Shown here: piece by piece, positions 461 through 31,872 of the stretch
Numbering within the stretch: position 1 is the first letter of the stretch
Layout: each line of letters starts with the position of its first letter
From: Chiloscyllium plagiosum
Taxonomy: Eukaryota
Length of the DNA stretch: 33,778 nucleotides
Assembly (NCBI RefSeq): GCF_004010195.1
Contig: NC_057752.1
Location: forward strand, 9,596,377 to 9,630,154
Direction: 5' to 3'
Notes under the pieces: model-generated
What the model was told of the DNA's origin: nothing
The model's database searches: none
Seen by the model: the letters and a program-made list of their open reading frames with translations, nothing else
Translations under genes and position numbers: made by a program

Positions 461-699
461 AGGTGTCTTTGGTTTGTTTGGATAGAGTCAAATTCCAATG
501 TTTGTTTGTTTGTTTCCTTGATATGCTACTGTACTGAACTGCGTTTGTGACTATGTGTTAAGATATCTTTTAGAAATATAGTTTTGAAGTTTAAAACAAA
601 ATTACTCTGCTTTCTCCAAAGATGCTGCGAGACCTGCTGCGTTTCTCCAAAACTTTCTGGTTTGATTTCAGCAAAGCCAACCTTGCTTTCACAGCCTGG

Positions 700-1980: not shown

Positions 1981-2081
1981 ATCCAGAAACGCTACCACTG
2001 CACCATTCCATTTTAATGGAGTTGGTTGAAATAGGGGCTGAAGGGAGATTTATGTGGATCTGAAATGCTACTGTAGATGTG

Positions 2082-2165
2082 ACAGATGCTGCCACACCTG
2101 CTGAGTTTCTCCAGCAACTTCAGGTTTGTTTCAGATTTTCAGCATCTATGGTTCTTTGTTTTATA
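2082..2165 (+). repeat. Remnant of a short PLE-terminus-derived element (similar remnant at ~605-672)
   Basis: CAGATGCTGCC..ACCTGCTGAGTTTCTCCAGCA..TTTCAGATTTTCAGCATCT is shared with the short elements at 16207-16330, 16445-16589 and 26241-26390. Confidence 0.6.
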
Positions 2166-8148: not shown

Positions 8149-8843
8149 TAAAAAAAGAAAGATCTACATTTATAAAGAGCTTTTCATGACCACCTGATAT
8201 CTCAAAGCACTTAACAGCCAATGAAATAAAAACAAAAAACTGCGGATGCTGGATGAAGGGTTTTGATGAATGGTCACTGGACATGAAATGTGCACAGGAA
8301 CACACAAAATGGACAAATGGAAGTTGGCTCCCCTGTCCCGGTACAGGCCCCCCACACCCAATGTCAATGCACAGAGAACGCGATGGTGCCATTAGCACAG
8401 GCATAGTTGCTCCCTGAGACCTGTCTTGTTGTGGCCAGTTGACATCATGGGCTGCATTTGTGCAATGCAGTGGCAATTTTGGTGTAATGGATAATGACTG
8501 CACATTTTAAACTATTGTAAAGTAGGAAGAGTGGAAGTCAAATTTTCACAGACAACCATATAGTCATGGCCAGATAGTCAGTTTTTGTCATGTTGATTGT
8601 GGGATAAATATTGATCAGGAGGCCATGGAGAACTTATCTGCTTTTCTTTGAAATGGTGCCATAGGATGTAATATTCACCTGAGCAAGTAAATGGGCCTTA
8701 ATTTAACATCTGTTGAAAGATAGGACTTACATCAAGTGCAACACTGCCACAGGACTGGATTTTTGGTGCTCAAGTCCTCGAATGAGACTTGAACCTAGAG
8801 CTTTGTGACTCAGAAGCAAGTGTGCAAACAACTGAGCCAAGGC
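8149..8843 (-). mobile_element. DeuSINE (SacSINE1-like), interrupted by a ~280 bp insertion at ~8226-8505
   Basis: tRNA-like head (GGTTCAAGTC on minus at ~8790). Deu-domain motifs GGGATAAATATTG and GGTGCCATAGGAT..TTCACCTGAG. 3' end CAAAGCACTTAACAGCCAATGAA with an A-rich tail. Homologous to the copies at 16123 and 17850/20486. Confidence 0.75.
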
Positions 8844-9478: not shown

Positions 9479-9682
9479 GGTGGAAGTGGGCACTGCAGAT
9501 TAGAGTCAAGATTCGAGTGGTGCTGGAAAAGCTCAACAGGTCAGGCAGCATCCGAGGAGCAGGAAAATCAACGTTTCAGGCAAAAGCCTCATGAAGGGTT
9601 TTTGCCTGAAACGTCAATTGTCCTGCTCCTTGGATGCTGCCTGACCTGCTGTGCTTTTCCAGCACCACTCTAATCTTGACTC
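9479..9682. mobile_element. Short palindromic non-autonomous element made of two inverted PLE termini
   Basis: 9503-9682 is an inverted repeat (GAGTCAAGATT.GAGTGGTGCTGGAAAAG ... CTTTTCCAGCACCACTCTAATCTTGACTC) centred on TCATGA. The arms match the Neptune-type PLE terminus at 20371-20455. Flanked by ACAACAG at 9472-9478 and 9685-9691. Confidence 0.85.
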
Positions 9683-9769
9683 ACACAACAGTCAATTATA
9701 GAAAGCTAGTGATTGTTAATTCATGGTTTTGGTAGACTCTTGACGAAGTTCACCATTTGAAATTATCAA

Positions 9770-9960
9770 AATAATCCTGATTTGTGCTGAATACTGATCA
9801 CAAATAATCACAGATACAGCTGGCCTCGGTGTTAGGAGGGGATGTATAAATATCAGCCAGGGTTCCAAGTGCTGACTGATGGAAACTTGATGATGATGCC
9901 TTTTATAGTTCAATAGGCACTTGTTGTCTATATTCATGCATGAAGAATAACCACTAAAGT
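9770..9960 (+). repeat. Old, diverged SINE-like dispersed repeat (related copies ~7690-7900, ~10800-11010, ~15145-15300)
   Basis: Degenerate blocks recur between these loci: TGGCCTCRGTG, TCAGCCAGGGTTCC, GTCAAATAGCC..CACTCACTGT..ATGAAGAAT.GCCACT. The family was not identified by name. Confidence 0.45.
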
Positions 9961-10145
9961 GAAACAGTAGAAGGTGTCTATTGTTGGGGAGTTGTAGGCC
10001 AACAAGACATCTTTAAGAGAGGATAAAACTGGAAGAGGAAAATCAACATTCTTTCACTGACATCCTGGAACAGAAAAATGGAATTAGTAAAAGCCAGCAC
10101 AAAGTAAACAGCCTTGTTCAGGGAACACACACTACTGGCTCTTAC

Positions 10146-10375
10146 TCGCATAACATGAGGTCACTGGATTGGTCTCGGTTTGATATTTTCTTCCTCTTGG
10201 CAGCTGGAGATCCCCCTCGCATTGAACACTTTCTTCTGCGTTTCTTCATATATTTTCTAGGACAATGTGGGTCAAAATACTCAAAGTCATTGGCTTTGTT
10301 TGTGAAATGCCTCCTGTTTCTTCTCTGTTTGCTTTCTCTCTGGGATGCCCCACTCCTGACAGACTGGTTACTTGC
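10146..10375 (-). CDS. BAZ2A: BAZ2A exon: basic PHD-bromodomain linker
   Basis: Acceptor ttctttttttccAG, donor GTAAG, phase 0-2. Translates ASNQSVRSG...SPAAKRKKISNRDQSSDLMLC(E). It ends in the SDL..C start of bromodomain helix Z. Confidence 0.93.
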
Positions 10376-11225
10376 CTGGAAAAAAGAAACAAAGTTGGTC
10401 ACAGTGCTCCCACAGCCCAGCTCCAGTGAGCAGCTGCAGAGATAATTGTGCACATACCTGAACGTGTTACCTGATGGATCGTGTAGAGATGAGAATGGGA
10501 CTGGTTATCCTGGCTGTTCACACTTTATCTTTAAGTGCTCACAATATTAAAAGGTGTCTGAATGCCTTCTTGATCTGCGTTTCGTCTCATGGGGAGAAAA
10601 ATATCAAGTAGTTTCCCACAAAAAATGTAACCCAGTGGGAAGGCTCAAGAGCTGGGCGCAAACTGAAGGCAGTCTCATCAAAAGTCAACTGAGTTCTTGT
10701 TAGTCTAAGTGAGGGTTTGCCTCAACAGTACCATTTGTTTCAGTTCTCCAACTGCAAATATTTGAAAACATTGGTGTGGTAGCTGAGAGGTGTGGGAAGC
10801 TTGGAGTGAATTAACTGGAAGACAATTGTAAGGAAGAGCAATCATTATTCATCTCTTGTCTAATGGTTCTTATTGGAAAATTTGCATGTGATGCTTTGGG
10901 CAAGGTCAGGCCTGATATGGATTTTCTCTGGGGTCAAATAGCCAGTGACCCTCACTGTTCAGGTTCCTGACTGAAGAATGGGCACTTGACCAACGGACTG
11001 GAGATGACTGTTAGGAGGTGGGAGGATGACAAGAAATTAATTCTTGCTGGGTAGGGGAGCAAATTGCATTCTCTGGGCTAGGTGTGTGTACTATGTTAGA
11101 TACAACAGCAATAAGTGAGTATTGTAATGTTAGGTGTTTATTTCAGAAAGAATTTACTAAATGACAGTATCTGACCCTGAGAACCAGTTCAGAATCGCAA
11201 TCCTGTCAAACCGTAAGCTCCTTAC

Positions 11226-11372
11226 CATGGCAATGCAGATCGGACAGAACCAGTCTCCCTCTGGAATCTCAACAATCTTGGGCTTGAGGCAGTAGGTGTG
11301 ACATCCCTGATCACAATTGTCGCACAGCAGCAAAAACTCATCTTTGTCCCCCTTTCCACAGATCTGACATGA
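11226..11372 (-). CDS. BAZ2A: BAZ2A exon: PHD finger
   Basis: Translates SCQICGKGDKDEFLLLCDNCDQGCHTYCLKPKIVEIPEGDWFCPICIAM, a complete C4HC3 finger. AG/GTAAG sites, phase 0-0. Confidence 0.98.
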
Positions 11373-11559
11373 CTGTAGAATAAATTCATGAAGTGACACT
11401 GTTTAAATCCAGGTGTGAGTGTAAAATGAACAGAAGGCATCTGATTGGCTGGAGGCAGGGTCAGAAGCAGTTTTAATACTCCACCCCACTGCTCCATCCG
11501 GTCAGAATCAGCACTCTATCCAAAGTCAGAAGTCACACACAATTATGGGTGCAGCGAAG

Positions 11560-11660
11560 ACTGAAAACAAAAAATGCTGGAAATCACAGTGGGTCAAGCA
11601 GCATCCATGGAAAGAGAGCAAGCTAATGTTTCGAGTCTAAATGACCTTTTCATCAGAGCT
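11560..11660 (-). mobile_element. Short PLE-terminus-derived element with hammerhead motif
   Basis: Minus strand 11660-11621 reads AGCT CTGATGA AAAGGTCATTTAGACTC GAAA CATT AGCT (4-bp stem I, imperfect stem II). It is followed by GGATGCTGCTTGACCC..TTTCCAGCA. Confidence 0.75.
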
Positions 11661-12439
11661 AGTTCAACGAAAGTGTACTCCCACAGCAGAAGCAGCAACA
11701 GTAAATTCTGACTAAACGTACCCATTCCAACAGCATAATGTTAGAATCCATTTCCTGCACCAGTCACTTAGGTGACCAGGTGGAGAACATGGATTCACTG
11801 TCCTTGGACAGTGATGGTACTCAGGCTAGCCATACGTGCCTAGTGTAGTGGGTCTCAGACTAAAGTGGATATCAATTGGAGGTTTTTCGCCTGAAGTGTG
11901 GCAGAGTTAGCAAGGAAATACATGTGATTTGTTGTTGGCATAGGCTTGGAAAGAGGTTGCCACAGTGTGTGAATAAAAGGTGCAAGTTAGAGGAACGGTG
12001 ATGGAGAGAATGCCGGAAGGGTCAGATAATATTGGTGAGGTTAGTGGACAACAGAGTAAATCACAGACACAGATGACAGAGGAATAGACAGATGGTGAGA
12101 CACATGCCATTAAATGTCATTATATGGATCTGTGGTTTTCGACTGATGTGTCATGAGAACTGGCCAAGTGTGCTGTGAAATTTTATATAAAGGTATTGAA
12201 AATCAACGTAAAACAATGCCACCAGATTAAGGGCCACAAATAGTCTGAAAGAGTTGAGTAGATTTTAAAAACGTGTCTGTGCTCACAATTGAAGAGTTTA
12301 TTTTGCCAGTGGATTTGAAACATTAATGCTTTTGATCCTTCTTTATCTTGTTGTATCTTGTTTTATGTTGTAAACCTCTCTCATAAGGCTGTAACCATAC
12401 ATGCAAGTAAGCGTGATGTTTAAGAGCAATCAATTCAGC

Positions 12440-12516
12440 TGAAAACAGTGGGCGTGCCATGGAATTGTCTGTCTCTGTGAAGTAAACTGTGTTACTAAAA
12501 AGGTTGGGAACCACTG
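12440..12516. mobile_element. Possible hAT (Charlie-like) DNA transposon end
   Basis: AAAAAGGTTGGGAACCACTG (12497-12516) is the reverse complement of a typical hAT-Charlie terminal repeat, CAGTGGTTCCCAACC. Only weak partner ends were seen (~11846, ~12307) and no 8-bp TSD. Confidence 0.4.
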
Positions 12517-12567
12517 AGATACATATTACAAGTTACATTAATTCCAAGAGTGAAATATCTTGCTTAC

Positions 12568-12703
12568 CACTTTCATGATAGATTTCTCCCAGGCAATGGC
12601 CCTCTCGAGTTGTTGAATGCACATGAATACCTGAGCAGCATTTGTGCATTTCAGTAAGGTTTCTCGCCACACACTTAAGCCAGGAGAGATGTGACCTTCA
12701 TTG
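12568..12703 (-). CDS. BAZ2A: BAZ2A exon preceding the PHD finger
   Basis: Translates (S)NEGHISPGLSVWRETLLKCTNAAQVFMCIQQLERAIAWEKSIMKV. The IAWEKS motif is typical of BAZ2 proteins. Phase 2-0. Confidence 0.96.
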
Positions 12704-13106
12704 CTGTGTGAAAGAAACAAAGAAAGCCATTCAGTTTGTTGTTCACTGGATGCCTCCACTGCCACAGAACAGGTGAATGATCTCCCCTGCTAAGGCATGG
12801 AACATTCTTATGCAACCTTCGCACGTCTTTAATAATAACACCATATGGAAGTCAAGCTCTGGATCTCCCCTGGGAAGATGGAGTGAAGATCAGGCCAAAA
12901 ATCGAGCAAGTTTCCTGAAAGATCCATGCTGCTGAAAAGCCCTGAAATGTTAGCTTACATTTCAGACGTGAGGAACTTTTGGGTGGGCTCCTGTGATTGT
13001 CCCAAACACACTGGCAGCACAGAGGGGCCCAAACTGCCAACAGGTACTCATGAAATTTAGGCCAGAATGTTAGCAACATATTGCAAATATTTACAATGTA
13101 AATTAC

Positions 13107-13396
13107 CTGTACTGCTTAGCATCATTGACACCCTCTGCAGAAGCAGAACTCATTGTCCCTGTGTTCTCCACTTTCCCTGAAACTGGTTGACACAGTGGTT
13201 CTTTCAGATATCGCCGCTCTACGTTTAACTCTAACGTTGCCAAGCGGGTTACAGCCAAGTCCAGAGGGTTGTTATTTCGTCGCATTAACTCCATCTCCTC
13301 CTCATCTTTCATTTTCCCATCACCTGAGGTGAGCCATTGCTGATCGAAATACACCAGGTCATCTCGAGTGGAGTCGGTGTCTGGACTGGTCCAGCC
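13107..13396 (-). CDS. BAZ2A: BAZ2A exon
   Basis: Translates GWTSPDTDSTRDDLVYF...NNPLDLAVTRLATLELNVERRYLKEPL...KQY. AG/GTAAT sites, phase 0-2. Confidence 0.95.
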
Positions 13397-13859
13397 CTAT
13401 GCAAATCAAACGCATTGCTCACTGCTCATGTAGAAATATGAGGCAGATCAGTGAAGGTGTTGTGGGAGATAGTGCAATCTGATAACACTGAGTCCTACAA
13501 GATCCAAGCTTGAGATGTTCACAGGACCTGACCCATGGCATCATGGCTCAGTTACATACATATTGCAGTAAGTGGGTAAGGAATTAATGGTGGAAACCTC
13601 TGTCATTTAAGTCCATGTAGTGTGGAAAAACATTGTTCTTCTTGGGTCTCATAACATGCCCTTCCATGTTTTTCTACCCACTCCACTTCTTCATGTCAAA
13701 TGAGTGACTAACTCAGAGTTCATCAATCATCAGCAATCCTCCTACTCCAACTAATTCACACATGCTGTCTAAACTGTGGAACACTTCACCTTTCTGTGTT
13801 CTCTACAATCACAGGGTCTTAACTGATTCCCTTATAAATTTTATCTTCTGTTTTATCAC

Positions 13860-14730
13860 TGCAGGCCTTGATCCCTCAACTGTGGCACCAGGGCCCTTGA
13901 TTTTTCAATGATGACAGCAAGGCCCTGTCCCTTCAGCAGGATTTATCATCAACAAATTACTGCTGCTTACCTTCACTGTACACAATCACCTGGTGGACAT
14001 ACTTGAACTCAAATGTCTTGCAACTCAGCATTATCACGATTGAAGTCATCTTGCTCAAGCACTACCAGAAATTCCACACCTCAACCCTCAATTCTATCAC
14101 TTTTCTGTGATGCCCACTCAAGGCCAATCTAACGGTGCACAATGTCTGTTTAACCATGAGCCGAGCCAGGTCTTCTGCATCATCAATATTGTTGGCGTCT
14201 GAAACAATGGCCACGTTTTCTCAATCTCACTGTCACTGTTCATTCACGCCATTGTGTCCATCAAACGGATAGCCCTCGCCCTCTGTCCTCCAACCTATTC
14301 TAATCAACTCATGCAGAACACCATCAAATCCACTCCTTCCTGCACCAAGCTTGACTGCCCTGATCATTGCTGCTTTTCATTCTCCAGTACATCAACTTCA
14401 ATCCCCTCAGCCTCATCTACAATTCCTTCCTCATTTCCTCTCCACATTGTGCAAGGTCTTGCAGTTCTCTCTGCTCACAAACACTGTGTAATCTCCCCCT
14501 CAGGACAGATTCTTCTGCCACAGTTCCTTCTGGAACTCAAAACCCCCCAAATCCAAACTTATCCACATCAGTACATCTCTAACTCGCTTTCAAAATCCTT
14601 GTTAAAATCTTCCTGCAATGATTCTGTTCGTCATCTCCCTCAGTTCTCCATTTTAAAAGCTGCTGGGGTCTGACTCCAAAGGACTACAGGACGTTTTGCT
14701 CTCCTAAAAAGTTCAAATTAAATGTTGTTG
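13860..14730 (+). mobile_element. Very old L2-clade LINE 3' fragment
   Basis: C/T-rich decayed coding relics (FIHAIV, QLMQN, WNS, FKILVK), ending in a ..TAAATGTTGTTG L2-like tail. Confidence 0.5.
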
Positions 14731-14939
14731 ATATGTGTGGAACATGTAACTTTTAAACTGGAATAAAAAATTCTGAATTAGTAACAGTTTAATTATTGCT
14801 ATATCCTCATGCAGCAACAAGTCTTTGATTTTCTACATTGAGAGACATGGTAGGGCAGTGTCAGTTAGTGTATGATTGTTCAGTTTATCCAGGGCATAGT
14901 GTAATCATTTGAGATTAGTGTCTGATGGGACTTTCCTAC

Positions 14940-15097
14940 CTTCACCTGCAGACTTGCAGATATTACTCTCTGCTCCAGGGCCTCAAGGTAGCGCAGAGCT
15001 GCAAGATCGACTGGAAATGCCCACTTCTCTGGCTTCCACTTCTCCACCATTTCCTTCGTTACGGAATGCTCCTTGTCATTATTGCTAAAGATGGAAT
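14940..15097 (-). CDS. BAZ2A: BAZ2A exon
   Basis: Translates (D)SIFSNNDKEHSVTKEMVEKWKPEKWAFPVDLAALRYLEALEQRVISASLQVK, joining GW in the next exon. Phase 1-0. Not listed in the ORF track. Confidence 0.95.
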
Positions 15098-15368
15098 CTG
15101 AGAAAGGAGAGAAATCAGGGAATTAAATATGGAGTTAAATAGATCTGGGCTGCTATTGGACTCAATACCCATGCGTTATTGATTAGGAAAAATACTTCAG
15201 AGTTTAGTGTCTGATTGCTGTCCAGGAATCCCTCCCTAGTCAAACCATTTACTGACACTCAGTGGCCAGATTTTCATATGAATAATGTCAACTAGGTTAG
15301 ATATGTGGCAACTAGGGAACTGTAGCCCACAATAGCCAGCACCTTTGGAAAATAAGATAATAAAAGAT

Positions 15369-15540
15369 CAATTGCAACATTTAAGAGGCATTTGGATGGA
15401 TATATGAACAGGAAGGGTTTGGAGGGATATGGGCTGGGTGCTGGCAGGTGGGACTAGATTGGGTTGGGATATCTGGTCGGCATGGATGGGTTGGACCGAA
15501 GGGTCTGTTTCCATGCTGTACATCTCTATGACTCTCTGAC
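15369..15540 (+). mobile_element. CR1 (HER1-like) short 3' fragment
   Basis: TFKRHLDGYMNRKGLEGYG plus tail GGACCGAAGGGTCTGTTTCCATGCTGTACATCTCTATGACTCT. Near-identical to 29095-29290 and the end of 20676-21240. Confidence 0.9.
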
Positions 15541-15710
15541 TGCACAGCGAGCTCACAAACATTATAGATACATTGGCTGGCCAAATACAAAAAGGTAAAA
15601 TATACTCTGAAGAAAATAGTATCCACTATCATCACAGTAAACCTCTGTTTTGCAGGAGTATCAATCATAACAGGATCACTGCAATATTATGTAGCAATAA
15701 GAGCCCTAAC

Positions 15711-15866
15711 CTTTCTTCTCTCTCATACAAGCTTGACTGACATAGTCCATATGTTTGAGGAGTTGTTTCTGTAAAGCCTTTTCCCGTAGCCCCCGCGGAT
15801 GAAGGGCTTTAAGGAGGCAATTTAGCTGCTCCAGGTTGTCAATGTGCCACCAGCCTTTCTGCATCT
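15711..15866 (-). CDS. BAZ2A: BAZ2A exon: WHIM3 motif
   Basis: Translates (E)MQKGWWHIDNLEQLNCLLKALHPRGLREKALQKQLLKHMDYVSQACMREKK. Phase 1-1. Confidence 0.97.
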
Positions 15867-16206
15867 CTACAAAAGAAAGAAAATACAATTAGTGAATCAC
15901 TGGAACTGCAGATCCGAGCTCCTCGAATAGTGGGAACAATATTGAAAGTTGCTCTTCAATCCTAATGCTTCCGCATAAACAAATATGGCAGTATTGTTAG
16001 CTTTCCAAACGTAACGTATCTGAAGTTAAAGCAGCTTCTATAATATCGATATGGCTGGCAGGCTTGTTCATGTACCTGACAACTTTAGAAAATGGTGGAA
16101 AGTGTTAACCCATGTACAGATTAAAAAAATGAATTCCTACAGGGCCTTACACAACTTCTCAGGATGTTCCAAAGCACTTTACAGCCAATTAAATATATTG
16201 GATATA

Positions 16207-16330
16207 AACCAAAAGAACTGCAGATGCTGTAAATCAGAAACAGAGATTGCTGGAAATGCTCAGCAGGTCTGGCAGCATCCGAGAAGAGAAATCAGAGTTA
16301 ACATTTCAGGTCCGGTGACCCTTCCTCAGA
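16207..16330 (-). mobile_element. Short PLE-terminus-derived element with hammerhead motif
   Basis: Minus strand reads TT CTGAGGA AGGGTCACCGGACCT GAAA TGTT AA, then GATGCTGCCAGACCTGCTGAGCATTTCCAGCA. Flanked by ATATA at 16202-16206 and 16331-16335. Confidence 0.75.
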
Positions 16331-16444
16331 ATATAGTCACTGTTGTAGTAAACATGGCAGCCAATTTGGGCACAACAAGCATCACAAACAGCAATGTGAG
16401 AATGAGCTGATAATCTGTTTATGTGATGTTAATCCTGGGATAAA

Positions 16445-16589
16445 GAAACACACAAATTTCCTCTAATTTCAAGCTTTTAAGAACAGTCATACTGGACTCC
16501 CTCTCCACAGTTATGCCAGACTGGCCAGGTTTCTCCAGCATTCTCTGCACTTGTTTCAGATTTCCAGCATCCCGCAGTATTTTTGCCTT
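16445..16589 (+). mobile_element. Degenerate short PLE-terminus-derived element
   Basis: Ends TTTCTCCAGCA..TTTCAGATTTCCAGCATC..CAGTATTTTTGC. Flanked by an 18-nt duplication: TGTTAATCCTGGGATAAA (16427-16444) and TGTTAACCTAGGGATAAA (16590-16607). Confidence 0.7.
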
Positions 16590-16990
16590 TGTTAACCTAG
16601 GGATAAATATTGGCCAGACCTTTAGGGATAACTCCCCTGAAATAGTACCACAGGATCTTTTAGTTCCACCTGACGGGATAGATGGGTCTTGTTTTAATAC
16701 CTTATCCAAAACAACAACACTTCAACAGTGCAGCGTTCTCTCGGCACTGGAGAGGCAGCCTGGAGTTTTATGCTCAAGTTCTGGAGTGCTACCCACTGAG
16801 CAATGGCTGACACCTTTGAGGAATTGGTGGCTAGGTTGATTGATGGTTATCACAACTAAATAAAGATAGGAAGAGCACCTACTGAAATCCCATGTTGGCA
16901 CTCGATAGTATATTTTTATCATGGTATATTTGGTTACATGGAAAAACTGTATCTTGCTGCCTGACTGTGCAATTCTGGCAAAGGCAATTT

Positions 16991-17154
16991 TATTCTAGAT
17001 TAGAGTGGTGCAAGAAAAGCACAGCAGTTCAGACAGCATCCAAGGAGCAGGAAATCAACACTTCGGGCAAAAGCCCTTCATCTGAACTGCTATGCTTTTC
17101 CAGCACCACTCTAATCTAGAATCTGGTTTCCAGCATCTGCAGTCCTTGTTTTTA
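16991..17154. mobile_element. Short partly palindromic PLE-terminus element with a perfect 12-bp TSD
   Basis: Inverted ends ATTCTAGATTAGAGTGGTGC / GCACCACTCTAATCTAGAAT (16992-17122). Hammerhead stem II relic GGGCAAAAGCCCTTCATC. TSD CAAAGGCAATTT at 16979-16990 and 17155-17166. Confidence 0.85.
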
Positions 17155-18010
17155 CAAAGGCAATTTGATCTAAGAAATAGTCCTTTGGTCGCAGAATAGA
17201 TTGTCTTGCAGAGAATCACAAACAGCACAACACTGAGGAAGGCCATTCAGCCCACTGTGCCTGTGGTTGGTTCTTGAAATGAACTATCCAATTAGTTCCA
17301 CTCCTCCTGTCAAATTAGCCCCTTTAAATATTTATCCAATTCACTTTTGCAGTGTAGGCAGAGTTTCAGAGAGACTTTTAAAAAGACTTTTAATATTGAA
17401 GAAAAGCATGCTTTAAAAAGCTAAAGTGTAACAAATAGCTCAGTAATAAATTCACCAGGAGATACTGAACCCTACACACTAGTTTGATATTAAAGAGCTG
17501 TAATACTACTGCTGTCCAATAGAAAGCACTCTATCAATAAGAATGGACAGTGACTCCTGACCCAGGCTTTGCATAAAGCATTAAGCTTGCATACTGTTTC
17601 AGAATGAAAACCTTTCAAGCAAAGCAAGTTAAAGAAATAATACCATTTCATTCATTTCTTTCACAAAATTCTGCTCTGTCTGAAAATTTACACAGGTTCT
17701 GAAAAGTGGAGAAATAAAGTTCAAATACATATTTATGTAAATGTTCACAGTTTGTTATGTAATAGAGACAGTAGCCACAAGTGTGGAGGCAAGTGTGACA
17801 AAGGCATATGTATTAGTTATGGCTCTGTGGGTGAAGGTCCATTCTACAGTACAACATCCAGTACAGGGCTGAGAGAATGCTGCATTGTCAAGAGTACCAG
17901 TTTTCAAATGAGAGATTAAACAGCTGCCTTCCCCTACAGGTGAATGTGAAAGATTCTGTGCCTTGAAGTGTAACAAAGGTTTCATCAATGTCTTGAGACA
18001 ATATTAATCT

Positions 18011-18912
18011 TTGAGTGTGTGGTGCTGGAAAAGCACAGCAAGGTCAGGCAGCATCTGAGGAGCAGGTAACTCGACGTTTTGGGCAAAAACCCTTCAGCAG
18101 GAATGAGGCTGGGAGCCTCAGGGGTGGAGAGATAAGTGGGAGGGGAGGGTGGGAAGTTAACTGAGGGTGCAATAGGTGGATAGAGGTGGGGGTAAGGTGA
18201 CAGGTCAGAGGGGAGGGTGGAGCAGATAGGTGGGAAGGAAGATGGACAGGAAGGACAGGTCATGAGGCTGGCGCTGAGCTGGAAGGTTGGAACTGGGATA
18301 AGGTGGGGGGGAGGGGAAATGAGGAAACTGGTGAAGTCCACATTGATGCCGTGGGGTTGGAGGGTCCTAAGGCGAAAGGGGTTCTTCCTCCAGGCGTCGG
18401 GTGGTAAGTGAGTGGCAATGGAGGAGGCCCAGCACCTGCATGTCCTTGGCGGAGTGGGAGGGGGAGTTGAAGTGTTCAGCCATGGGACGGTGGGGTTGGT
18501 TGGTGCGGGTGTCCTGGAGATGTTCTCTGAAGTGCTCCATGAGGAGGCGTCCAATGTAGAGGAGACTACATCGGGAGCAACGGATAGAACCAAATTTATT
18601 GGTGGATGTGCAGGTGAAACTTTGATGGATGTGGAAGGCTCCTTTGGGGCCTTGGATGGAGATGAGGGGGGGGAGGTGTGAGCACAGGTTTTGCAATTCC
18701 TGCGGTGGCAGGGGACGGTGGGTTATTGGGGGTGGGGGACGTGGACCTGACGAGGTAGTCGCAGAGGGAACGGTCTTTACGGAAAGCAGATCGGGTGGGG
18801 AGGAAAATATATCTCTGGTGGTGGGGTCCATTTGTAGGTTGTGGAATGGCGGAGGATGATGCAGTATACGGAGGTTGGTGGGGTGGAAAGTGAGGACTGG
18901 GGGGGGTTCTGT
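18011..18912 (-). mobile_element. Penelope-like element (Neptune type) 3' fragment: GIY-YIG endonuclease region plus terminus
   Basis: ORF 18367-19110 contains FHIHQSFTCTSTN..IRCSRCSLLYIG..FREHL..MAEHFNSPSHS (GIY-YIG). The terminal hammerhead motif is mutated (CTGCTGA..AAAACGTC, ~18071-18100). Confidence 0.88.
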
Positions 18913-19220
18913 CCTCTCACCCACATCCTGCACCTCTGTCCTCGAACACCACCCCTCCAATTGCAAACAGTTCCACCACAGAACACACCAGATGGCCTCC
19001 TTCTTTAAAGACTGCAATTTCCCCTCCCACGAGGTTGATGATGCCCTCCAATGCATCTCATCTGCATCCCGCACCTCTGCCCTCAAACCCCACCCCTCCA
19101 ACCACAGCAAGGACAGAACGGAGCGGTGGGGTTGGTTGGTGCAGGTATCCTGGAGATGTTCTCTGAAGCGCTTTGCGAGTAGGCATCCTGCCTCGCCAAT
19201 ATAGAGGAGACCACATCGGT

Positions 19221-19536
19221 GGGCGGCACAGTGGCACAGTGGTTAGCACTGCTGCCTCACAGCGCCAGAGACCCGGGTTCATTTCCCGCCTCAGGCGACT
19301 GACTGTGTGGAGTTTGCACGTTCTCCCCGTGTCTGCGTGGGTTTCCTCCGGGTGCTCCAGTTTCCTCCCACAGTCCAAAGATGTGCAGGTCAGGTGAATT
19401 GGCCATGCTAAGTTGCCCGTAGTGTTAGGTAAGGGGTAAATGTAGGGGTATGGGTGGGTTACGCTCCGGCGGGTCAGTGTGGACTTGTTGGGCCGAAGGG
19501 CCTGTTTCCACACTGTAATGTAATGTAATCTAAAAA
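19221..19536 (+). mobile_element. HE1-type V-SINE, full length, nested in the PLE
   Basis: A box GTGGCACAGTGG, B box GGTTCATTTCCC, V-domain, and CR1-derived tail GGGCCGAAGGGCCTGTTTCCACACTGTAATGTAATGTAATCT. Confidence 0.93.
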
Positions 19537-20368
19537 CCCCCCGTTCCTCACCTTCCACCCCACCAACTACTGTACACATCGCATCATCCTCCGCCATTTC
19601 TGTCACCTACAAAAGGGCCCTACCACCAGAGATATATTTCTCTCCCCAAGCCTATCTGCTTTCCGCAAAGACCATTCCCTCCACGACTACCTGGTCAGGT
19701 CCACCCTAACAACCGACCCACCCTCCCCTCCCGGCACCTTCCCATGCCACCGCAGGAATTGCAAAACCTGGGCACACACCTTCCCCCTCACCTCTATCCA
19801 ATCCCCCAAAGGAGCCTTCCACATCTATCAGAGTTTTACCTGCACTTCCACACATATCATTTACTGTAACCGTTGCTCCCGATGCGGTCTCCTCTACATT
19901 GGGGAGGCAGGATGCCTACTCGCAAAGCACTTCAGAGAACATCTCCAGGATACCTGCACCAACCAACCCCACCGCCCCATGGCCGAACGCTTCAACTCCC
20001 CCTCCCATTCTGCTGAGGACATGCTGGTCCTGGGCCTCCTCCACCACCAGTCCCTCACCACCCAAGCCTGAAGAAAGAAAGCCTCATCTTCCATCTGGGA
20101 CCCTCCAATCCCACAGCGTCAATGTGGACTTCACCAGTTTCCTCATTTTCCCTCCCCCACTTAACCCCAGTTCCAAACTTCCAGCTCAGCACCATCCTCA
20201 TGACCTGTCCTACCTGTCCATCTTCCTTCCCACCTATCCGCCCCACCCTCCCCTCTGACCTATCACCTTTACCCCCACCTCCATCCACCTATTGCACTCT
20301 CAACTACCTTCCTCCCAGCCCCACTCCCCTCCCAGTTATCTCTCCACCCCCGAGGCTTCCAGCCTCAT

Positions 20369-20400
20369 TCCTGAAGAAGGGCTTTTCCCTGAAACGTCGA
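20369..20400 (+). ncRNA. Minimal type I hammerhead ribozyme motif in the Neptune PLE terminus
   Basis: Reads TC CTGAAGA AGGG-CTTTT-CCCT GAAA CG TC|GA. The core boxes are intact and stem II is perfect, with a GUC site. Stem I is only 2 bp next to the core. Confidence 0.65.
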
Positions 20401-20675
20401 TTTTCCTGCTCCTTGGATGCTGCCTGACCTGCTGTGCTTTTCCAGCACCACACTCTCAACCTAATCTCCGGTACTCACTTTCACCACAATATTAATTCTT
20501 CCAAGCTACCACTAAAGTAAGCTTAATAAACAGGTTTTTATCACATTGCCTAATGACAGTCTTTGCTGTGTACAATTGGCTGCCATGTTTCCTACATTAC
20601 AATACATTTCACAAGTATTTAATTAGCTGTAAAGTATATTGGGATGTACTGGCATCATGAAAGAACCAAACAAAC

Positions 20676-21240
20676 AGAGTCATAGAGATGTACAGCATGA
20701 AAACAGACCCTTCAGTCCAACCCGTCCATGCTGACCGGATATCCCAACCCAATCTAGTCCCACCTGCCAGCAGCCGGCCTATATCCCTCCAAACCCTTCC
20801 TATTCATATACCCATCCAAATGTCTTTTAAATGTTGTAATTATACCAGCGTCCACCACTTCCTCTGGCAGCTCATTCCATACATGTACCACCCTCTTTGT
20901 GAAAATGTTGCCCCTTAGATCTCTTTTATATCTTTCCCCCCTCACCCTAAACCTATGCCCGCTAGTTCTGGACTCCCCGACCCCAGGGAAAAGACTGTGT
21001 CTATTTATCCTATCCATGCCCCCTCATAATTTTGTAAACCTCTATAAGGTCACCCCTCACCTCAGCCTCTGACGCTCCAGGGAAAACAGCCCCAGCCTGT
21101 TCATCCTCTCCCTGTAGGTCAAACCCTCCAACCCTGGCAACATCCTTGTAAATCTTTTCTGAACCCTTTCAAGTTTCACAACATCTTTGCGAGGAAGGAG
21201 ACCAGAACTGCACGCAATATTCCAACAGTGGCCTAACCAG
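20676..21240 (-). mobile_element. CR1 (HER1-like) LINE 3' fragment
   Basis: ORF pieces KDVVKLERVQKRFTRMLPGLEGL and GHRFRVRGERYKRDLRGNIFTKRVVHVWNELP, with the canonical tail. Older CR1 debris continues to ~21570. Confidence 0.92.
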
Positions 21241-21577
21241 GAGGAGGAATAAGGCCTTTTGAGCACACTCCTTCAATCAATATGATCAGAGCTGATCAAT
21301 TACCTCCACGTCATCTTCCCACAGCATGACTATATCCCTCAATTCCCTTCATACCCAAAAATCTATCAATCTCTGTCAATCTTCTATACTCCAGGGAATA
21401 TTGGCCAATTCTCCTCACTCTGTCTTCAAAGGAGAATCACCCCAGTAATCAGTCCACTTTATGCATTTCCTCCAAGGCAACTATATCCTTCGGTTGGTAA
21501 GGAAATCAAAACTATACATGTTACTCCAGTTACCAAGGCCTTGTGTAAGGCTAGGAAGACTTTTTAAACTCTTATAA

Positions 21578-22398
21578 ACTGCAGAATTGGGCTGAGAGGT
21601 GGCAAATGGAGTTCAATGCAGCTAAATGTGAGGTGATGCACTTTGGGAAGAATAACAGGAAGGCAGAGTACTGGGCCAGTGGAAAGATCCTTGGGAGTGT
21701 GGATGTGCAGAGGGATCTTGGAGTCCATGTGCATAGGTTCCTGAAAGTTGCCACCCAGGTGGATAGTGCTGTTAAGAAGGCACACGGTGTGTTAGGTTTC
21801 ATTCGTAGAGGGATTGAGTTCCAGAGCCGTAATGTCATGCTGCAACTGTACAAAACGCTAGTGCGGCCGCACTTGGAATATTGTGTACAATTCTGGTCGC
21901 CCCATTACAGGAAGGATGTGGAAGCATTGGAAAAGCTGCAGAGGAGATTTACCAGGATGTTGCCTGGTCTGGAGGGTAGGTCTTATGAGGAAAGGCTGAG
22001 AGACTTGGGTCTGTTCTCATTGGAAAGAAGAAGGCTAAGAGGGATTTTGATAGAGACATACAAGATGATCAGAGGATTAGATAGGGTAGACAGTGAAAGT
22101 CTTTTTTGTAGGATGATGATGTCAGCTTGTACAAGGGGGCAAAACTACAAATTGAGGGGTGATAGATTTAAGACAGATGTCAGAGGCAGGTTCTTTATTC
22201 AGAGAGTGGTAAGGGCGTGGAATGCCTTACCTGCCAATGTAGTCAACTCAGCCACATGAGGGAGATTTAAACAATCCTTAGATAAGCAAATGGATGATGA
22301 TGGGACAGTGTAGGGGGACAAGCTGAGAATAGTTCACAGATCGGTGCAACATCGAGGGCCAAAGGGCCTATTTAGCACTGTATTGTTCTATGTTCTAT
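21578..22398 (+). mobile_element. CR1 LINE 3' fragment, relatively young, with a 217-aa open RT C-terminal frame
   Basis: ORF 21606-22259 reads MEFNAAKCEVMHFG..RDLGV..YKTLVRPHLEYCVQFWSPH..RVVRAWNALP. The tail is TATTGTTCTATGTTCTAT. Confidence 0.95.
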
Positions 22399-22414
22399 AT
22401 TGTTGTGTGTTGTG

Positions 22415-22635
22415 TTGCCATAGTTTTACCAGACCATAGAGGCTGCTCTTCCATTAGAGAGAGAAGCAACTGATGGTGATTTAACCTGAGGGCCACCAGT
22501 CCTCAGGTGAGGGAAGAGATTGAGAAGGAGAGTCCTTCATGGTAACCACAAACCAGTGATAGGAATTGAACCCATGCTGTTGGCATCACACTGCTCTTCA
22601 AACAAACCCTCCAGTCAACTGAGCTCAACTGATCC
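22415..22635 (-). mobile_element. tRNA-derived SINE (distinct from HE1 and DeuSINE)
   Basis: Minus strand has the A-box-like AGCTCAGTTGACTGG and B box GGGTTCAATTCC, then a ~150 bp body ending TGGTCTGGTAAAACTATGGC. Confidence 0.6.
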
Positions 22636-23254
22636 CACCCTTATATTAGACACCATAAAAATGTAGGTCTGTCTTTTAAAATGGAAAGCTACAGTAATTT
22701 TACAAGACCTAGCTCCCAGCCTGCAGCTTTGTCTGTGACAAGCCTAAGTGCTGATGACAGAATTGGCCCTATAGTGTTATTAGCCTCAGAATTAGCTTAA
22801 TAGCAGCATAATTCCCTTCTTAATTCCTGCTTACAAAAGTCAATTCAATGAAACCACAATGTATTTTAGTTAATGATGACGAGTGATTGGAAGTGAGTAA
22901 AAGGCCATAATGTAATGTCACATGTTTTCCACAAAGCAATCAATAATTGTTCAGAATAAGAATACTGTTCACAATAACTGGTTTAGGCACCAGTTAAACA
23001 CTGATGTTAATTTACTGCATAACTATTCTGCACACACAATTAGATGAACAGAGTGGATTGAGCTGAAGAATGAGGGTGTTGAAGTGTGGGGAAGCTGGTA
23101 ATATGGAGGTTTGCAAGAATGGATTTATACACAAACTAAATTTATCACCAATAGACTGGAAAATTGTGGAAATATGCAACATATAATATCTTGGGGTCAC
23201 CTGTAGGAGACACATTTGCTCATAAAATGCTGAGTTTTTAATCCAAATTTGCTA

Positions 23255-24092
23255 ATGTGCCAAAATTGGTCAGAGGGAATGTTGTGATGAGGACATAAAG
23301 AACCTGCATGGGGATAAACAGGATGAGTGACTGGCAGGTGGAGTCTAATATAGGAAAGTGAGAGGTTATGCATTTTGGTAGAATTAATCAAAAGGCAGAC
23401 TATCATTTAAATGGAGAGAGACTCCAAAAAAAAAGTGCAGCGGAGAGCGATCTGGGTATTCTTGTGCATGAAACACAAAACATTAGCATGCAGGTGCAGC
23501 AAGTCATTAAGACGGCAAATGAAATTTCGATTTTTATTGTCGGGGGTTGAATTTTAAAACTAGTTACAATTGTACAAGCGTTGGTGAGAATGGACCTGGA
23601 GTACTGTGTACAATTTTGGTCCCTGTATTTAAGAAACAATGTACTGGCATTGGAGGCAGTTCAAAAGAGTTTCACTCAGTTGATTCCTGGGATGAAGGGT
23701 TGACTTATCAGGTGAGGTCTTTATTCATTCGAGTGTAGAAGAATGAGGGGTGATCTTATTGAAATATACAAGATTCTGAGAGGACTTGATCAGGTAAATA
23801 TTGAAAGGTGTTTCCACTGGTGGGGTCACAGTTACAGAATAAAGGGGCATTCATTTTTTTAAAAAAGTGAAGAAATTACTTCTTGCTGACGGTAGTGAAT
23901 GTCTAGAATCCTCTACCCCAGAGAGTTGTGAAGACTAAATATTTAAAGAAAGGTAGATAGATTTTTGAAATGTTGAGAGCCGGCATGAAAGAGAAGTTGA
24001 GACCTGGGGCAGATCAGCCACAATCTTGTTAAATATTGAGACAGCCTTGAGGGGCTGAATGGCCTGATTCTGCTCCTATTTCTTAAGTTATT
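23255..24092 (+). mobile_element. Older CR1 LINE 3' fragment
   Basis: Decayed MHFGR..Y.LNGERLQ..DLGILVHETQ, LEYCVQFWS and DLIEIYKILRGLD segments. Tail GGGGCTGAATGGCCT..TCTGCTCCTATTTCTT. Confidence 0.88.
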
Positions 24093-24383
24093 ATGCAGCA
24101 TTTTCCAAGGTGGCCAATATTCGCCTTTTAGTTTTTTTTTGGTAGCTGATTTCAAAGATCAGTGTTAGAACAGGATCTTCAGAAATGGTGCTCCACATAA
24201 GCACCATTCCTTACTGGGAGCACTTGGTATGGGATTGAGTCTTTGAGGTTATTTAACAGCAATGTAACTTTGTGGCCTTAAAAGATTATAGCAAAATAGT
24301 CAACCCTTATGGCACTCTGTAACAATCTTAGTTCGCTTCCCCAACAAGACAAAGTGACATTTGACTTGGAGTGAGCATCTCAC

Positions 24384-24600
24384 CTTCTGGAATAGGTTTC
24401 AATTGCCGCTGACTCATCTCTTTCTGCAATTTTGATGGTCGTCCACGACGCCTAGGTGTCGGTGGCAAAAAGCATACACTCTGAGGAGCACTATCGCAAC
24501 GACGAGACTTGACCTTTGGTTTGGTCGCAGTGGAGCCAACTTCGACAGAAGTGCGGATCGGGGTCTCGCAAGGAGCAGCGGGGTCCATCAAGTCTGCAGA
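24384..24600 (-). CDS. BAZ2A: BAZ2A exon containing an AT-hook (RRRGRP)
   Basis: Translates SADLMDPAAPCETPI...PPTPRRRGRPSKLQKEMSQRQLKPIPE(E). Donor GTGAG, phase 1, joins MQKGWW. The acceptor at 24602-24601 is the only nearby AG giving the required phase 0. Confidence 0.88.
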
Positions 24601-24804
24601 CTGCCCATCAAATGGAACATCCAGGTGCAGCATCAGAGAAAGCAGAAGAGAATGAAGAGAGAGTGGTGAGCAGAGTCATGTACTGCTAAAAACCTAGGCT
24701 GCACCAGCACACAGGCCCCAAGAGGAGAGTTCATCAGAACACTTTAGATTTCATTTGAGAAACATTTAGAAACATAAAGCTTCCTCACATGGCAGTGTTG
24801 AGTT

Positions 24805-24906
24805 TTTTAAAATTCATTTGTAGGATGTGACTGGCCAGCATTTATTGCCCGTCCCTAGTTGCCCTTGAGAAGGTGGTGGTGAGCTGCTTTCTTGAACCGC
24901 TGCAGT
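24805..24906 (-). mobile_element. Short 3' fragment of the LINE also present at 26590-27600
   Basis: GGCCAGCATTTATTGCCCGTCCCTAGTTGCCCTTGAGAAGGTGGTGGTGAGCTGC matches the more diverged 26620-26680. Confidence 0.7.
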
Positions 24907-25802
24907 TCAGAGTGAAGGCACTATTGACACAAACTGGAGGGGCCCCTATGTTTGGTTTCCATTCTGAATTGAATTTCAGACATTTGAGGTCTTAATACTC
25001 TGCGCTGGGGAACCAAGAGATAACAGTCAGGGCAGTAACTCTTCACAGAAGCAACTGGTATGGTTCACAAAAGTAGCATTCGTTGGGAAACCAAAGATTG
25101 CTGGGCCTGACCAATAAAAACTGATTGTGGGCAAGATTGACCTTTTGGGGGAGAGAAGTACAAGACATTCCATGACTGTGAGTACAGCTATGTTGGGGTA
25201 AGGCTTGAGGACACATTGGCCAGACTGACATCTCAGGAATGGACACCTGGGTGCAGTAGTGGAGATCAGCGTGAGGAACCACCTGGCTGTGGTGTCGAGG
25301 ACAGCTCCTTCGACAGTGAGCCCACAATTTGCCAATCCCATTTTCAAGGTACTGATCATTTACCATGCTTTGGAAATCAGGCTTTTACTTCCTCAACACC
25401 CTTTTCTTGTTAATGTTCTCCCCTTCTTCTGCTGGAGGTGTTGCTGCATTCCTGCTCCACAGTTCCCTTCTCTACCTTCCTCATGGGCCAATGCCTCATT
25501 TGTGACTTTGTATATTAAAGTGTCAGCAATGCTGACAGCCTTGTAGCTACTAAGTCAGCTCATCGCATAATGGAGTAAATCGCTGTATCATTCTAAGATT
25601 TTATGATTGCCTGACATCACTCACTCCTTCCAGCAGAGGTTGCTAGATAGTCACTAGGAGTTACCTACACCTGCTGTTGAGACCAGTTCTCAACTTTCTT
25701 GGGATCTATTGCTCTGTATTCATTGCTTTAACCAGCTGGACCACTTGGAGAGGAATCAGTCTCACTAACAGAACAAAATTCCAAATGGCAGTGGTTGTTA
25801 CT

Positions 25803-26130
25803 GGGCAATATAGTGGCTCAGTGTTTAGCACTGCTGCCTCACAGTGCCAGGGGCCTAGGTCCAATTCCAGCCTCAGGTCACTGTCTGTGTAGAGTTTGCA
25901 CATTCTCCCCATGTCTGCATCAATTTCCTCCCACAGTCCAAAGACGTGCAGATTGGCCATGCTAAATTATCCATAATATGCAGGCTAGGTGGATTAGTAA
26001 CGGGAAATGTGGAGTTTGGAGTTTGGGGGTGGGGGGGGAAAGTGTTGGTTCCATATGGGCTGTTCCTCGTGAGCGGATCAGTGTGGACTCGATGGGCCGA
26101 ATAGCCTGTTTCCACTGTAGTGATTCTATG
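25803..26130 (+). mobile_element. HE1-type V-SINE, diverged
   Basis: Head GTGGCTCAGTGTTTAGCACTGCTGCCTCACAG, partial V-domain, tail GGGCCGAATAGCCTGTTTCC. Confidence 0.88.
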
Positions 26131-26240
26131 TCTTCAGGAGGATGTGCAACTGCCCTACGATCATACCGAAACTTAAACACGGCTGTTAACGTTTCCTTAT
26201 CAAAACACAGATTGGACCTCAAGAGGTATACTGTATCTAA

Positions 26241-26390
26241 TGTTCTGATAAAAAGTCACTAGACTCAAAATGTTCACTCTGTTTTCTCCCCACAGATGCT
26301 GCAAGACCTGCTGGATTTCTCCTCTGTTTTTATTGGGTAAATGCTCGGGTTTCTTGTTTTAATTCAGGTAAAAGGTGCTAGTCTTGGGTT
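26241..26390 (+). mobile_element. Degenerate short PLE-terminus element with decayed hammerhead motif
   Basis: Reads GTT CTGATAA AAAGTCACTAGACTC AAAA TGTT, then CAGATGCTGCAAGACCTGCTGGATTTCTCC. A possible TSD TATCTAA lies at 26234-26240 and 26392-26398. Confidence 0.6.
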
Positions 26391-31650: not shown

Positions 31651-31872
31651 ATGGTCATGCTCATGTCACTCCCACTTTCCAGGTGCACTCCCCACGCCAC
31701 CACCACTATCACCTAACCCTGGACTCCAGTGTTATTTAAAATTTGGTCTGACTCAGCCACAAATATGTTCAATGACCCAGCCTCCATTGTTCTCTTGGGT
31801 AGAGAAATCCAAACAACAACAACCCTCCTTAAGTAAGGAGACCAAATTGTATGCAATAAAAGACTTCAAAAT

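What the first reader, a model, noticed from the sequence alone, without database searches (positions are those of the whole stretch)
9479..26390. Family of short, non-coding, hammerhead-bearing elements built only from Penelope termini, several with a TSD
Seen: at least six 100-200 bp inserts (9479-9682, 11560-11660, 16207-16330, 16445-16589, 16991-17154, 26241-26390; remnants at ~605, ~2082, ~8230). They consist of a CTGANGA-stem-GAAA(C/T)GT(C/T)-like motif in varying states of decay plus the GATGCTGCC.GACCTGCTG..TTCCAGCA block, with no coding sequence. Several have target duplications: perfect 12-bp CAAAGGCAATTT, 15/18-nt TGTTAA..GGGATAAA, ACAACAG and ATATA. At least two stem II variants occur (GGGC-TTTT-GCCC and GGTC-ACCG-GACC types), which keep pairing despite different sequence. 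Inference: this may be a non-autonomous, ribozyme-processed retroelement class (retrozyme- or SINE-like, lacking Pol III boxes) mobilised by PLE RT/GIY-YIG, at high density in this genome. I do not know whether it is already catalogued.
Basis: partly seen in the sequence, partly recalled or inferred. Interest (0 to 1): 0.7.

Follow-up and report, generated by a model that had tools for sequence, protein, structure and literature searches.

The report
Stubby Penelope retroelement ends in shark
The short inserts are real, but they are best read as the cut-short end pieces of an already described kind of jumping gene (Penelope-like elements) rather than a new mobile RNA class; the one open point is why so many stop right in front of the small ribozyme motif.

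Summary
The inserts exist: the shared block occurs 9 times against 0.01 expected. They fall into two sequence types. That copy encodes the C-terminal part of a Neptune-type RT/GIY-YIG protein. Type-A arms run from about 45 nt to about 1.1 kb with a different junction each time, which is the published Penelope-like insertion pattern. Type B (16206-16331, 11558-11660, 26241-26335, 16445-16589) has no coding parent in the window. Its relatives mostly go on into unrelated sequence just upstream of the hammerhead core, so they are not a smooth truncation continuum; nor is that the ribozyme cut site. Only 2 of 6 named inserts keep both core boxes, none is tandem, covariation is not beyond shuffles. 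Best reading: dead-on-arrival Penelope-like insertions, many probably run-off copies of the element's mRNA leader (inferred). A separate self-propagating type-B family is not excluded (about 15%). This scan noted the same elements and 5' clustering before on other DNA of this genome.

The parts
9479..9682 (-). Type A short insertion: tailed arm 9479-9588 (minus strand, tail 9479-9502) joined head to head to a tail-less inverted arm 9597-9682; junction inside the hammerhead core
   Evidence: (I11: 86-nt arms, 91%); flanking repeat 9472-9478/9685-9691 (7 nt, weak)
16991..17154 (+). Type A short insertion: tail-less inverted arm 16991-17082 (reaches into the hammerhead core) plus short tailed arm 17082-17154 that begins inside the block
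   Evidence: perfect 12-bp TSD 16979-16990/17155-17166; edges also present in organism B contigs
18009..20485 (+). Long 5'-truncated Neptune-type PLE copy with the same ends: inverted tail-less arm 18009-18904, direct tailed arm about 18900-20485 interrupted at 19120-19528; hammerhead core 20371-20398; RT-thumb/linker/GIY-YIG coding remnants
   Evidence: TSD 17998-18008/20486-20496, 11 of 11; arms 82% over 929 columns; 75% protein identity to a shark protein, E 3.5e-77; CxxxxCxxC linker, YC..YIGE and CCHH residues; tblastn
16206..16331 (-). Type B single module: hammerhead core 16329-16300, block, tail 16238-16206; starts 2 nt upstream of the core; sits in an old host SINE copy
   Evidence: loose-end piles at 16331, 16238, 16206; host paralogues
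11558..11660 (-). Type B tail-less module with both core boxes (11656-11625); no clear TSD
26241..26335 (+). Type B module with two core substitutions; the stretch to 26390 does not align well and the 7-9 nt flanking repeat is uncertain
16445..16589 (+). Type B tailed module with a decayed, internally deleted hammerhead and about 30 nt of extra 5' sequence; 18-nt TSD
   Evidence: present in organism B (record 2)
8222..8295 (.). Type B remnant: tail on the minus strand joined to a decayed hammerhead on the plus strand
   Evidence: the same tail-to-hammerhead opposite-strand joint recurs in other copies (table 5)
2038..2165 (+). Decayed type B module (block and tail clear from 2085; hammerhead part doubtful)
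604..673 (+). Decayed type B remnant; its alignment begins about at the predicted ribozyme cut site
31866..33778 (-). Unrelated long PLE copy (RT coding) ending in a third minimal hammerhead, core 31946-31913; lacks the shared block
   Evidence: (RVT_1 E 3.9e-12)

Best explanation
The inserts are one-off insertion products of protein-coding, endonuclease-bearing Penelope-like elements (Neptune type for type A), not a family that copies itself. Steps: (1) the element's GIY-YIG domain nicks both strands of AT-rich DNA 5-18 nt apart, giving the TSD (TSDs shown; enzyme inferred from the family). (2) Reverse transcription starts inside the RNA at either of two sites about 32 nt apart downstream of the hammerhead, giving tailed and tail-less 3' ends (two ends shown; mechanism from the anole Poseidon work). 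(3) The second DNA end is often primed as well, and the two truncated copies are joined head to head, tail on one arm only (architecture shown, junction different in each copy; twin priming versus self-priming not resolved). (4) Copying stops anywhere from inside the block to more than 1 kb upstream, but very often at the upstream edge of the hammerhead. My preferred cause (inferred, about even odds): a PLE mRNA begins in the pseudo-LTR just before the hammerhead and so has a priming site near its own 5' end; priming there runs off the RNA end and yields a 100-130 nt stub, like strong-stop DNA. The hammerhead is carried uncut and then decays neutrally.
For: Long coding copy with the same ends, one-sided tail and 11-bp TSD; its terminal arms are 80-90% identical to the long arms of the short type-A copies. 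A predicted zebra-shark RT/endonuclease protein (P0004) runs into the same hammerhead sequence (aa 509-522 on 18100-18059). In a genomic run of the same species the coding body is also very high-copy: summed depth 1.7e5-2.4e6 in 8 of 8 bins 18101-18900 against 1.2e6 at its terminus and about 16 in unique DNA. Two 3'-end piles at 16206 and 16238 (751 and 1538 contigs in X4, 784 and 1578 in X11). 5' pile at 16331 (2157, 2171, 202 contigs) with heterogeneous onward sequence (agreement 0.37-0.38, median length 152-255), unlike element-internal loose ends (0.62-0.90, 11-53 nt). Three type-A copies have three different junctions. Core decay: 2 of 6 named inserts keep both boxes. Literature: inverted 5'-truncated copy plus 30-40 bp tail (PMC8557442, passages; PMC3846280, passages); solo and opposite-strand minimal hammerheads read as truncated PLEs (PMC4209133, parts 1-2 of 4); two internal RT starts, cleavage not needed for insertion (PMC11167929, parts 1-2 of 4); Penelope start site 46 nt before an intron (PMC2377424, passages) whose 3' end maps to helix I (PMC4209133).
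Against: No coding parent for type B was found: the window has none and no whole genome was available. The clustered 5' edge is not what random truncation predicts and is equally what a discrete family would give. The reference itself ends at 16331, so all copies must stop aligning there; only the low agreement argues that most do not continue, and several subfamilies or inverted arms would also lower it. Only 18 of about 5000 loose-end rows were shown, so fractions cannot be given. Depth is not a copy number by the tool's own warning; adding the 16991 terminus, type-A ends outnumber the body median about 6-fold. The remnant at 604-673 starts about at the cut site. No start site was mapped: the one raw RNA run laid gave 0 reads.
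Confidence: 0.75

Rival explanations
1. Type B is a discrete non-autonomous, SINE-like family: 100-130 nt hammerhead-block-tail units are themselves transcribed (read-through or an internal Pol II promoter) and re-mobilised in trans by PLE proteins.
For: Clustered 5' edge and two fixed 3' ends in three species' runs; rough abundance 5e4 depth-equivalents; no shared upstream sequence among seven type-B copies; no parent in the window; pLTR sequences suffice for trans-mobilisation in a rotifer (PMC3846280, passages); at least two stem II subtypes within B.
Against: The sister type A, with the same block and tail design, has a coding parent and variable arms; 16445-16589 starts about 30 nt further upstream; core positions decay; no ordered Pol III A-box/B-box pair; type-B copies also form head-to-head joints at several different positions (table 5).
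Confidence: 0.15
2. Plain random 5' truncation of full-length PLE transcripts; the apparent pile at the hammerhead is an artefact of where alignments can end or of the RT falling off after the hairpin.
For: Arm lengths in the window span about 45 nt to about 1.1 kb; coding body is high-copy; 16331 is the end of the reference.
Against: Onward sequence at 16331 agrees no better than unrelated flanks at the tail end (0.38 against 0.40) and is long, i.e. unique-like; in the window 7 of 12 arms start within about 10 nt of the core's first base (my reading).
Confidence: 0.07
3. Non-LTR retrozyme monomers: units released by hammerhead self-cleavage, circularised and reinserted.
For: Type I hammerhead motif, non-coding, TSDs larger than 4 bp, PLE-derived sequence; solo monomers of retrozyme families are described (10.64898/2026.07.22.740005, parts 1-3 of 5).
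Against: No tandem units (6 arrays, all period 12 or less); units shorter than the 150-450 bp given in PMC7229834 (passages); minimal, not canonical, hammerheads; ends are not at the cut site and not permuted; inserts do not fold better than shuffles (6 of 6 z between -0.53 and 1.07).
Confidence: 0.03

Closest known systems
Insertion units of EN+ Penelope-like elements: 5'-truncated copy, adjacent inverted truncated copy, 30-40 bp tail on one end, 8-10 bp TSD (Craig et al. 2021 PMC8557442; Arkhipova et al. 2013 PMC3846280; passages read)
   Same: Head-to-head arms, tail on one arm only, TSDs of 11-18 nt, C-terminal GIY-YIG with Neptune-type linker in the long copy
   Different: Many copies here are reduced to the last 100-200 nt, and the 5' ends pile just upstream of the hammerhead, which I did not see stated in the passages read
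Minimal hammerheads of metazoan PLE pseudo-LTRs (Cervera and De la Pena 2014, PMC4209133; parts 1-2 of 4 read)
   Same: No helix III, palindromic 15.2-16.2, extra base before stem II, short helix I, many solo copies, pairs on opposite strands 100-700 bp apart, several consensus families per genome
   Different: The parts read name fish, coelacanth, frog and reptiles, not sharks; supplements not seen
Anolis Poseidon (PAc) in vitro mechanism (Frangieh et al. 2024, PMC11167929; parts 1-2 of 4 read)
   Same: Two 3' ends separated by the tail, AT-rich targets, both strands used, hammerhead retained uncut
   Different: Different PLE clade; that work does not describe leader-length stubs in the parts read
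Non-LTR retrozymes (Cervera and De la Pena 2020 PMC7229834, passages; Li et al. 2026 bioRxiv 10.64898/2026.07.22.740005, parts 1-3 of 5)
   Same: Non-coding, type I hammerhead, related to PLE pseudo-LTRs, solo monomers exist, reported from one chondrichthyan
   Different: Retrozymes are defined by tandem units with a hammerhead in each and circular RNA; here there are no tandems, units are shorter and arms are inverted

Membership tests
EN+ Penelope-like element insertion (Neptune type), type A copies | Terminus shared with an element coding RT plus C-terminal GIY-YIG with CX2-5CxxC linker and CCHH | tested here: met
   18009-20485
EN+ Penelope-like element insertion (Neptune type), type A copies | Inverted truncated copy at the 5' side and 30-40 bp tail on one end | tested here: met
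   3 of 3 type-A insertions
EN+ Penelope-like element insertion, type B copies | Tail with two 3' ends, TSD, minimal hammerhead | tested here: met
   16206/16238 piles; 18-nt TSD checked against host paralogue; core at 16300-16329
EN+ Penelope-like element insertion, type B copies | ORF-linked parent with this terminus | not testable with these tools
   none in the window; no genome held; collection scans gave only chance hits
Minimal type I hammerhead | CUGANGA and GAAA boxes, stem II, NUH site | tested here: met
   met in 16300-16329 and 20371-20398 by descriptor (2 hits; 200 shuffles mean 0.105, 2 shuffles reach 2); broken in 4 of 6 named inserts
Minimal type I hammerhead | Covariation in stems I and II | tested here: inconclusive
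   8 copies, 7 pairs; 53/500 shuffles reach the score; better than all slid controls
Minimal type I hammerhead | Self-cleavage | not testable with these tools
   needs an assay; Rfam gave no hammerhead match at E up to 10
Non-LTR retrozyme | Tandem units each with a hammerhead | tested here: not met
   tested in this window only
Non-LTR retrozyme | Unit bounded by the ribozyme cut site | tested here: not met
   5' pile at 16331, cut site at 16300/16299; one remnant (604-673) is a possible exception
Non-LTR retrozyme | Circular RNA | not testable with these tools
   raw RNA run X22 laid 0 reads: no test
SINE (Pol III) | Ordered internal A and B boxes or tRNA head | tested here: not met
   control SINE at 19219 shows A then B at its head; among 6 inserts only 16991-17154 has loose one-mismatch A and B hits in order, in the antisense arm
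Discrete non-autonomous retroelement family | Short copies descend from short copies (own subfamilies, shared junctions) | tested here: inconclusive
   type A: three different junctions (against); type B: fixed ends but no tree possible

The most novel reading that the evidence does not exclude
Type B is a self-propagating, Pol III-independent SINE-like family of roughly 1e4-1e5 copies made only of the PLE hammerhead-block-tail module, whose fixed 5' edge marks its own transcription start and which is mobilised in trans by Neptune-type proteins; it would define the minimal cis signal for PLE retrotransposition in about 130 nt.
Probability: 0.15. Interest if true: 0.55.

Novelty: new member of a known kind. 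Interest (0 to 1): 0.24.

Why it matters
As an element type it is known. Its use is as a natural footprint of the poorly understood PLE mechanism: tens of thousands of stubs record two reverse-transcription starts, the joining of two arms and a preferred stop just before the hammerhead. If that stop is the mRNA 5' end, the stubs map PLE start sites and explain why genomes carry so many solo minimal hammerheads; they also show that the ribozyme is copied uncut.

Tried and rejected
No whole genome was held, so no genome-wide copy set, consensus or tree. Rfam: 8 matches at E up to 10, none a hammerhead; the microRNA-family matches reflect the 9503-9682 hairpin and are below gathering scores. Block pattern in metagenome contigs: 14 of 14 loci match only the 19-43 nt around the pattern and none has the hammerhead or tail; viral contigs 0. 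Pfam found no family in the 19532-20071 frame; the assignment rests. No RNA holder listed; raw RNA run X22 laid 0 reads, no test of expression or cleavage. Empty-site test: 4 of 4 insertions in 15901-18900 are also present in organism B, so no empty site; only this 3-kb part and 4 of 24 listed runs were laid. Folding of 6 single modules: none better than shuffles. Covariation inconclusive. Paper searches listed no paper describing these shark elements; Dfam and Repbase could not be searched, and bioRxiv supplements (the chondrichthyan retrozyme list of the 2026 preprint) are closed, so 'not catalogued' is not shown. Rejected: MITE of a DNA transposon (tail on one side only, arms derive from an RT element); chance repeats.
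Full report
Setting. The window lies in introns of a gene on the minus strand with a PHD-finger exon at 11157-11402 (the name BAZ2B is my recollection from the exon peptides, not a tool result). The best protein relatives of its retroelement coding remnant come from carpet sharks, so the genome is shark-like. No assembly was held.

Observation. All named inserts and remnants are present. The shared block matches 9 times with up to 3 mismatches against 0.01 expected. Read in one orientation each module is: minimal hammerhead, about 20 nt spacer, block, short T-rich or ACCAC stretch, and an optional tail of 25-35 nt. Two types differ in stem II and downstream: type A (short stem II with a T4 loop) and type B (longer stem II, itself with two subtypes). 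TSDs are firm for 16991-17154 (12 of 12) and 16445-16589 (15 of 18; the paralogous host repeat at 8591-8608 carries the stretch once), weak for 9479-9682 and 26241-26390 (7-mers, 20.5% in a wide null of 2000 pairs) and uninformative or absent for 16206-16331 and 11558-11660. Both catalytic boxes survive in 2 of the 6 named inserts, and both of these have lost the palindromic ACGT by changes of CpG type. Stem II pairing differs between subfamilies, but on 8 copies covariation did not exceed shuffles (53/500), although it beat all slid controls.

Type A has a coding parent in the window. 18009-20485 is flanked by an 11-bp TSD, consists of a tail-less inverted arm (18011-18904) and a tailed direct arm, 82% alike over 929 columns, and encodes the end of an RT, a CxxxxCxxC linker and a GIY-YIG domain with CCHH residues (75% identity, E 3.5e-77), the Neptune-type layout in PMC8557442 (passages). 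Its terminal arms are 80-90% identical to the long arms of 9479-9682 and 16991-17154. The two short copies repeat its architecture in miniature: head-to-head arms, tail on one arm only. The three junctions differ (inside the core; core joined to block; about 0.9-1.1 kb upstream), and within each copy the two arms share the same subfamily end, so each palindrome was most likely built at insertion. A predicted zebra-shark RT/endonuclease protein runs on into the same hammerhead sequence. Laying a same-species genomic run on 15901-18900 shows the coding body at summed depth 1.7e5-2.4e6 in all 8 bins, against 1.2e6 at its terminus, 2.3e6 at 16991-17154 and about 16 in unique DNA; depth is no true copy number, but long copies are clearly abundant.

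Type B is less settled. No parent lies in the window and seven copies share no upstream sequence. In one search, contigs of other copies leave the reference at three places: 16206 and 16238 (751 and 1538 contigs in X4; 784 and 1578 in X11), which are the tailed and tail-less 3' ends 32 nt apart, matching the two internal RT starts shown for anole Poseidon (PMC11167929; parts 1-2 of 4); and 16331 (2157, 2171 and 202 contigs in three species), 2 nt upstream of the core. The reference ends there, so the pile alone proves nothing; what counts is that onward sequence is long and heterogeneous (agreement 0.37-0.38, like tail-side flanks at 0.40) whereas loose ends inside elements agree at 0.62-0.90. 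Several subfamilies or inverted arms could also lower agreement, and only 18 of about 5000 rows were shown. In the window, by my reading, 7 of 12 arms start within about 10 nt of the first core base; the others start about 30 nt upstream (16445), about 0.8 and 1.1 kb upstream (long copy), inside the block (17082) or about at the cut site (604, decayed); the remnant at 2038-2165 was left out because its 5' end cannot be placed. So truncation is not smooth, but the preferred edge is about 30 nt upstream of the cut site: the ribozyme was copied uncut, as in the PAc work, where cleavage was not needed for insertion. Opposite-strand joints from tail or block to 16329-16331 recur (table 5) and match the remnant at 8222-8295. 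All 4 insertions in the laid stretch are shared with organism B, so they predate that split; no empty site was seen.

Mechanism. Shown: TSDs, two 3' ends, one-sided tail, variable inverted junctions, preferred 5' edge, decay of core positions. From family knowledge: GIY-YIG nicking of AT-rich DNA and internal priming. [quoted passage not shown] Because PLEs sit in partial tandems, an mRNA starting in the pseudo-LTR has the hammerhead-block-tail module near its 5' end as well as at its 3' end; priming at the first copy runs off after 100-130 nt. In Drosophila Penelope the start site lies 46 nt before a 75-nt intron (PMC2377424, passages) whose end maps to helix I (PMC4209133), which fits by analogy. 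The idea that the template begins at this edge came from earlier notes of this scan; I tested the clustering in part, not the start site. I give the overall reading 0.75 and this last step about even odds within it.

Rivals. A discrete non-autonomous type-B family (0.15) predicts the same fixed ends and can be told apart only with genome-wide trees. Pure random truncation (0.07) fits the heterogeneous onward sequence poorly. Retrozyme (0.03) fails on tandem units, unit bounds and folding; retrozymes are defined as tandem units in PMC7229834 (passages) and the 2026 preprint (parts 1-3 of 5; supplements closed). No Pol III head was found.

Novelty. Eight paper searches listed no description of these shark elements, but Dfam and Repbase were not searchable. 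The kind is known; this is a new member, with one modest open feature. Eight earlier notes of this scan on other pieces of the same genome describe such elements; they are unchecked and not independent support. Interest 0.24.

Noticed in passing
window 16427-16444, 17998-18008, 16199-16205, 8218-8222: Four PLE insertions sit in three copies of one old SINE-like host repeat (a Deu-type SINE by my recollection), and in pairs at nearly the same spots: the long copy and 16445-16589 within about 10 nt of the same ATAAATATT-like motif, 16206-16331 and 8222-8295 within about 15 nt of each other after CAGCCAAT. Suggests AT-rich target preference.
   Followed up: partly
window 19120-19528: The direct arm of the long copy is interrupted by a 100-nt inverted piece of itself (95% to 19879-19978, against 82% between the arms) followed by a tRNA-type SINE (HE1-like, name recalled): a template switch, conversion or later insertion.
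   Followed up: no
window 18106-18115 and 31951-31960 (minus strand): The type-A element and the unrelated PLE at the window end share the 10-mer GAGGCTCCCA a few bases upstream of their hammerheads (uncorrected p about 0.03 among 66 pairs); could be a promoter or splice-acceptor motif, or chance.
   Followed up: no
window 16273-16279 with 16222-16228; similar in 2085-2147, 16514-16571, 17082-17135: The start of the block is complementary to the start of the tail (GATGCTG / CAGCATC) around an inner TGCTG / CAGCA hairpin; the tail-less end falls between the two. Candidate RT-binding structure; invariant pairs, so untested.
   Followed up: no
window 31866-33778 minus strand: Third PLE family with RT coding, a minimal hammerhead with a longer bulged stem II and no shared block; runs off the window end.
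   Followed up: partly
window 11157-11402, 12538-12789, 13103-13396, 14880-15122 minus strand: Exons of the host gene (PHD finger by Pfam; BAZ2B-like by recollection); all inserts are intronic or flanking, on both strands.
   Followed up: no
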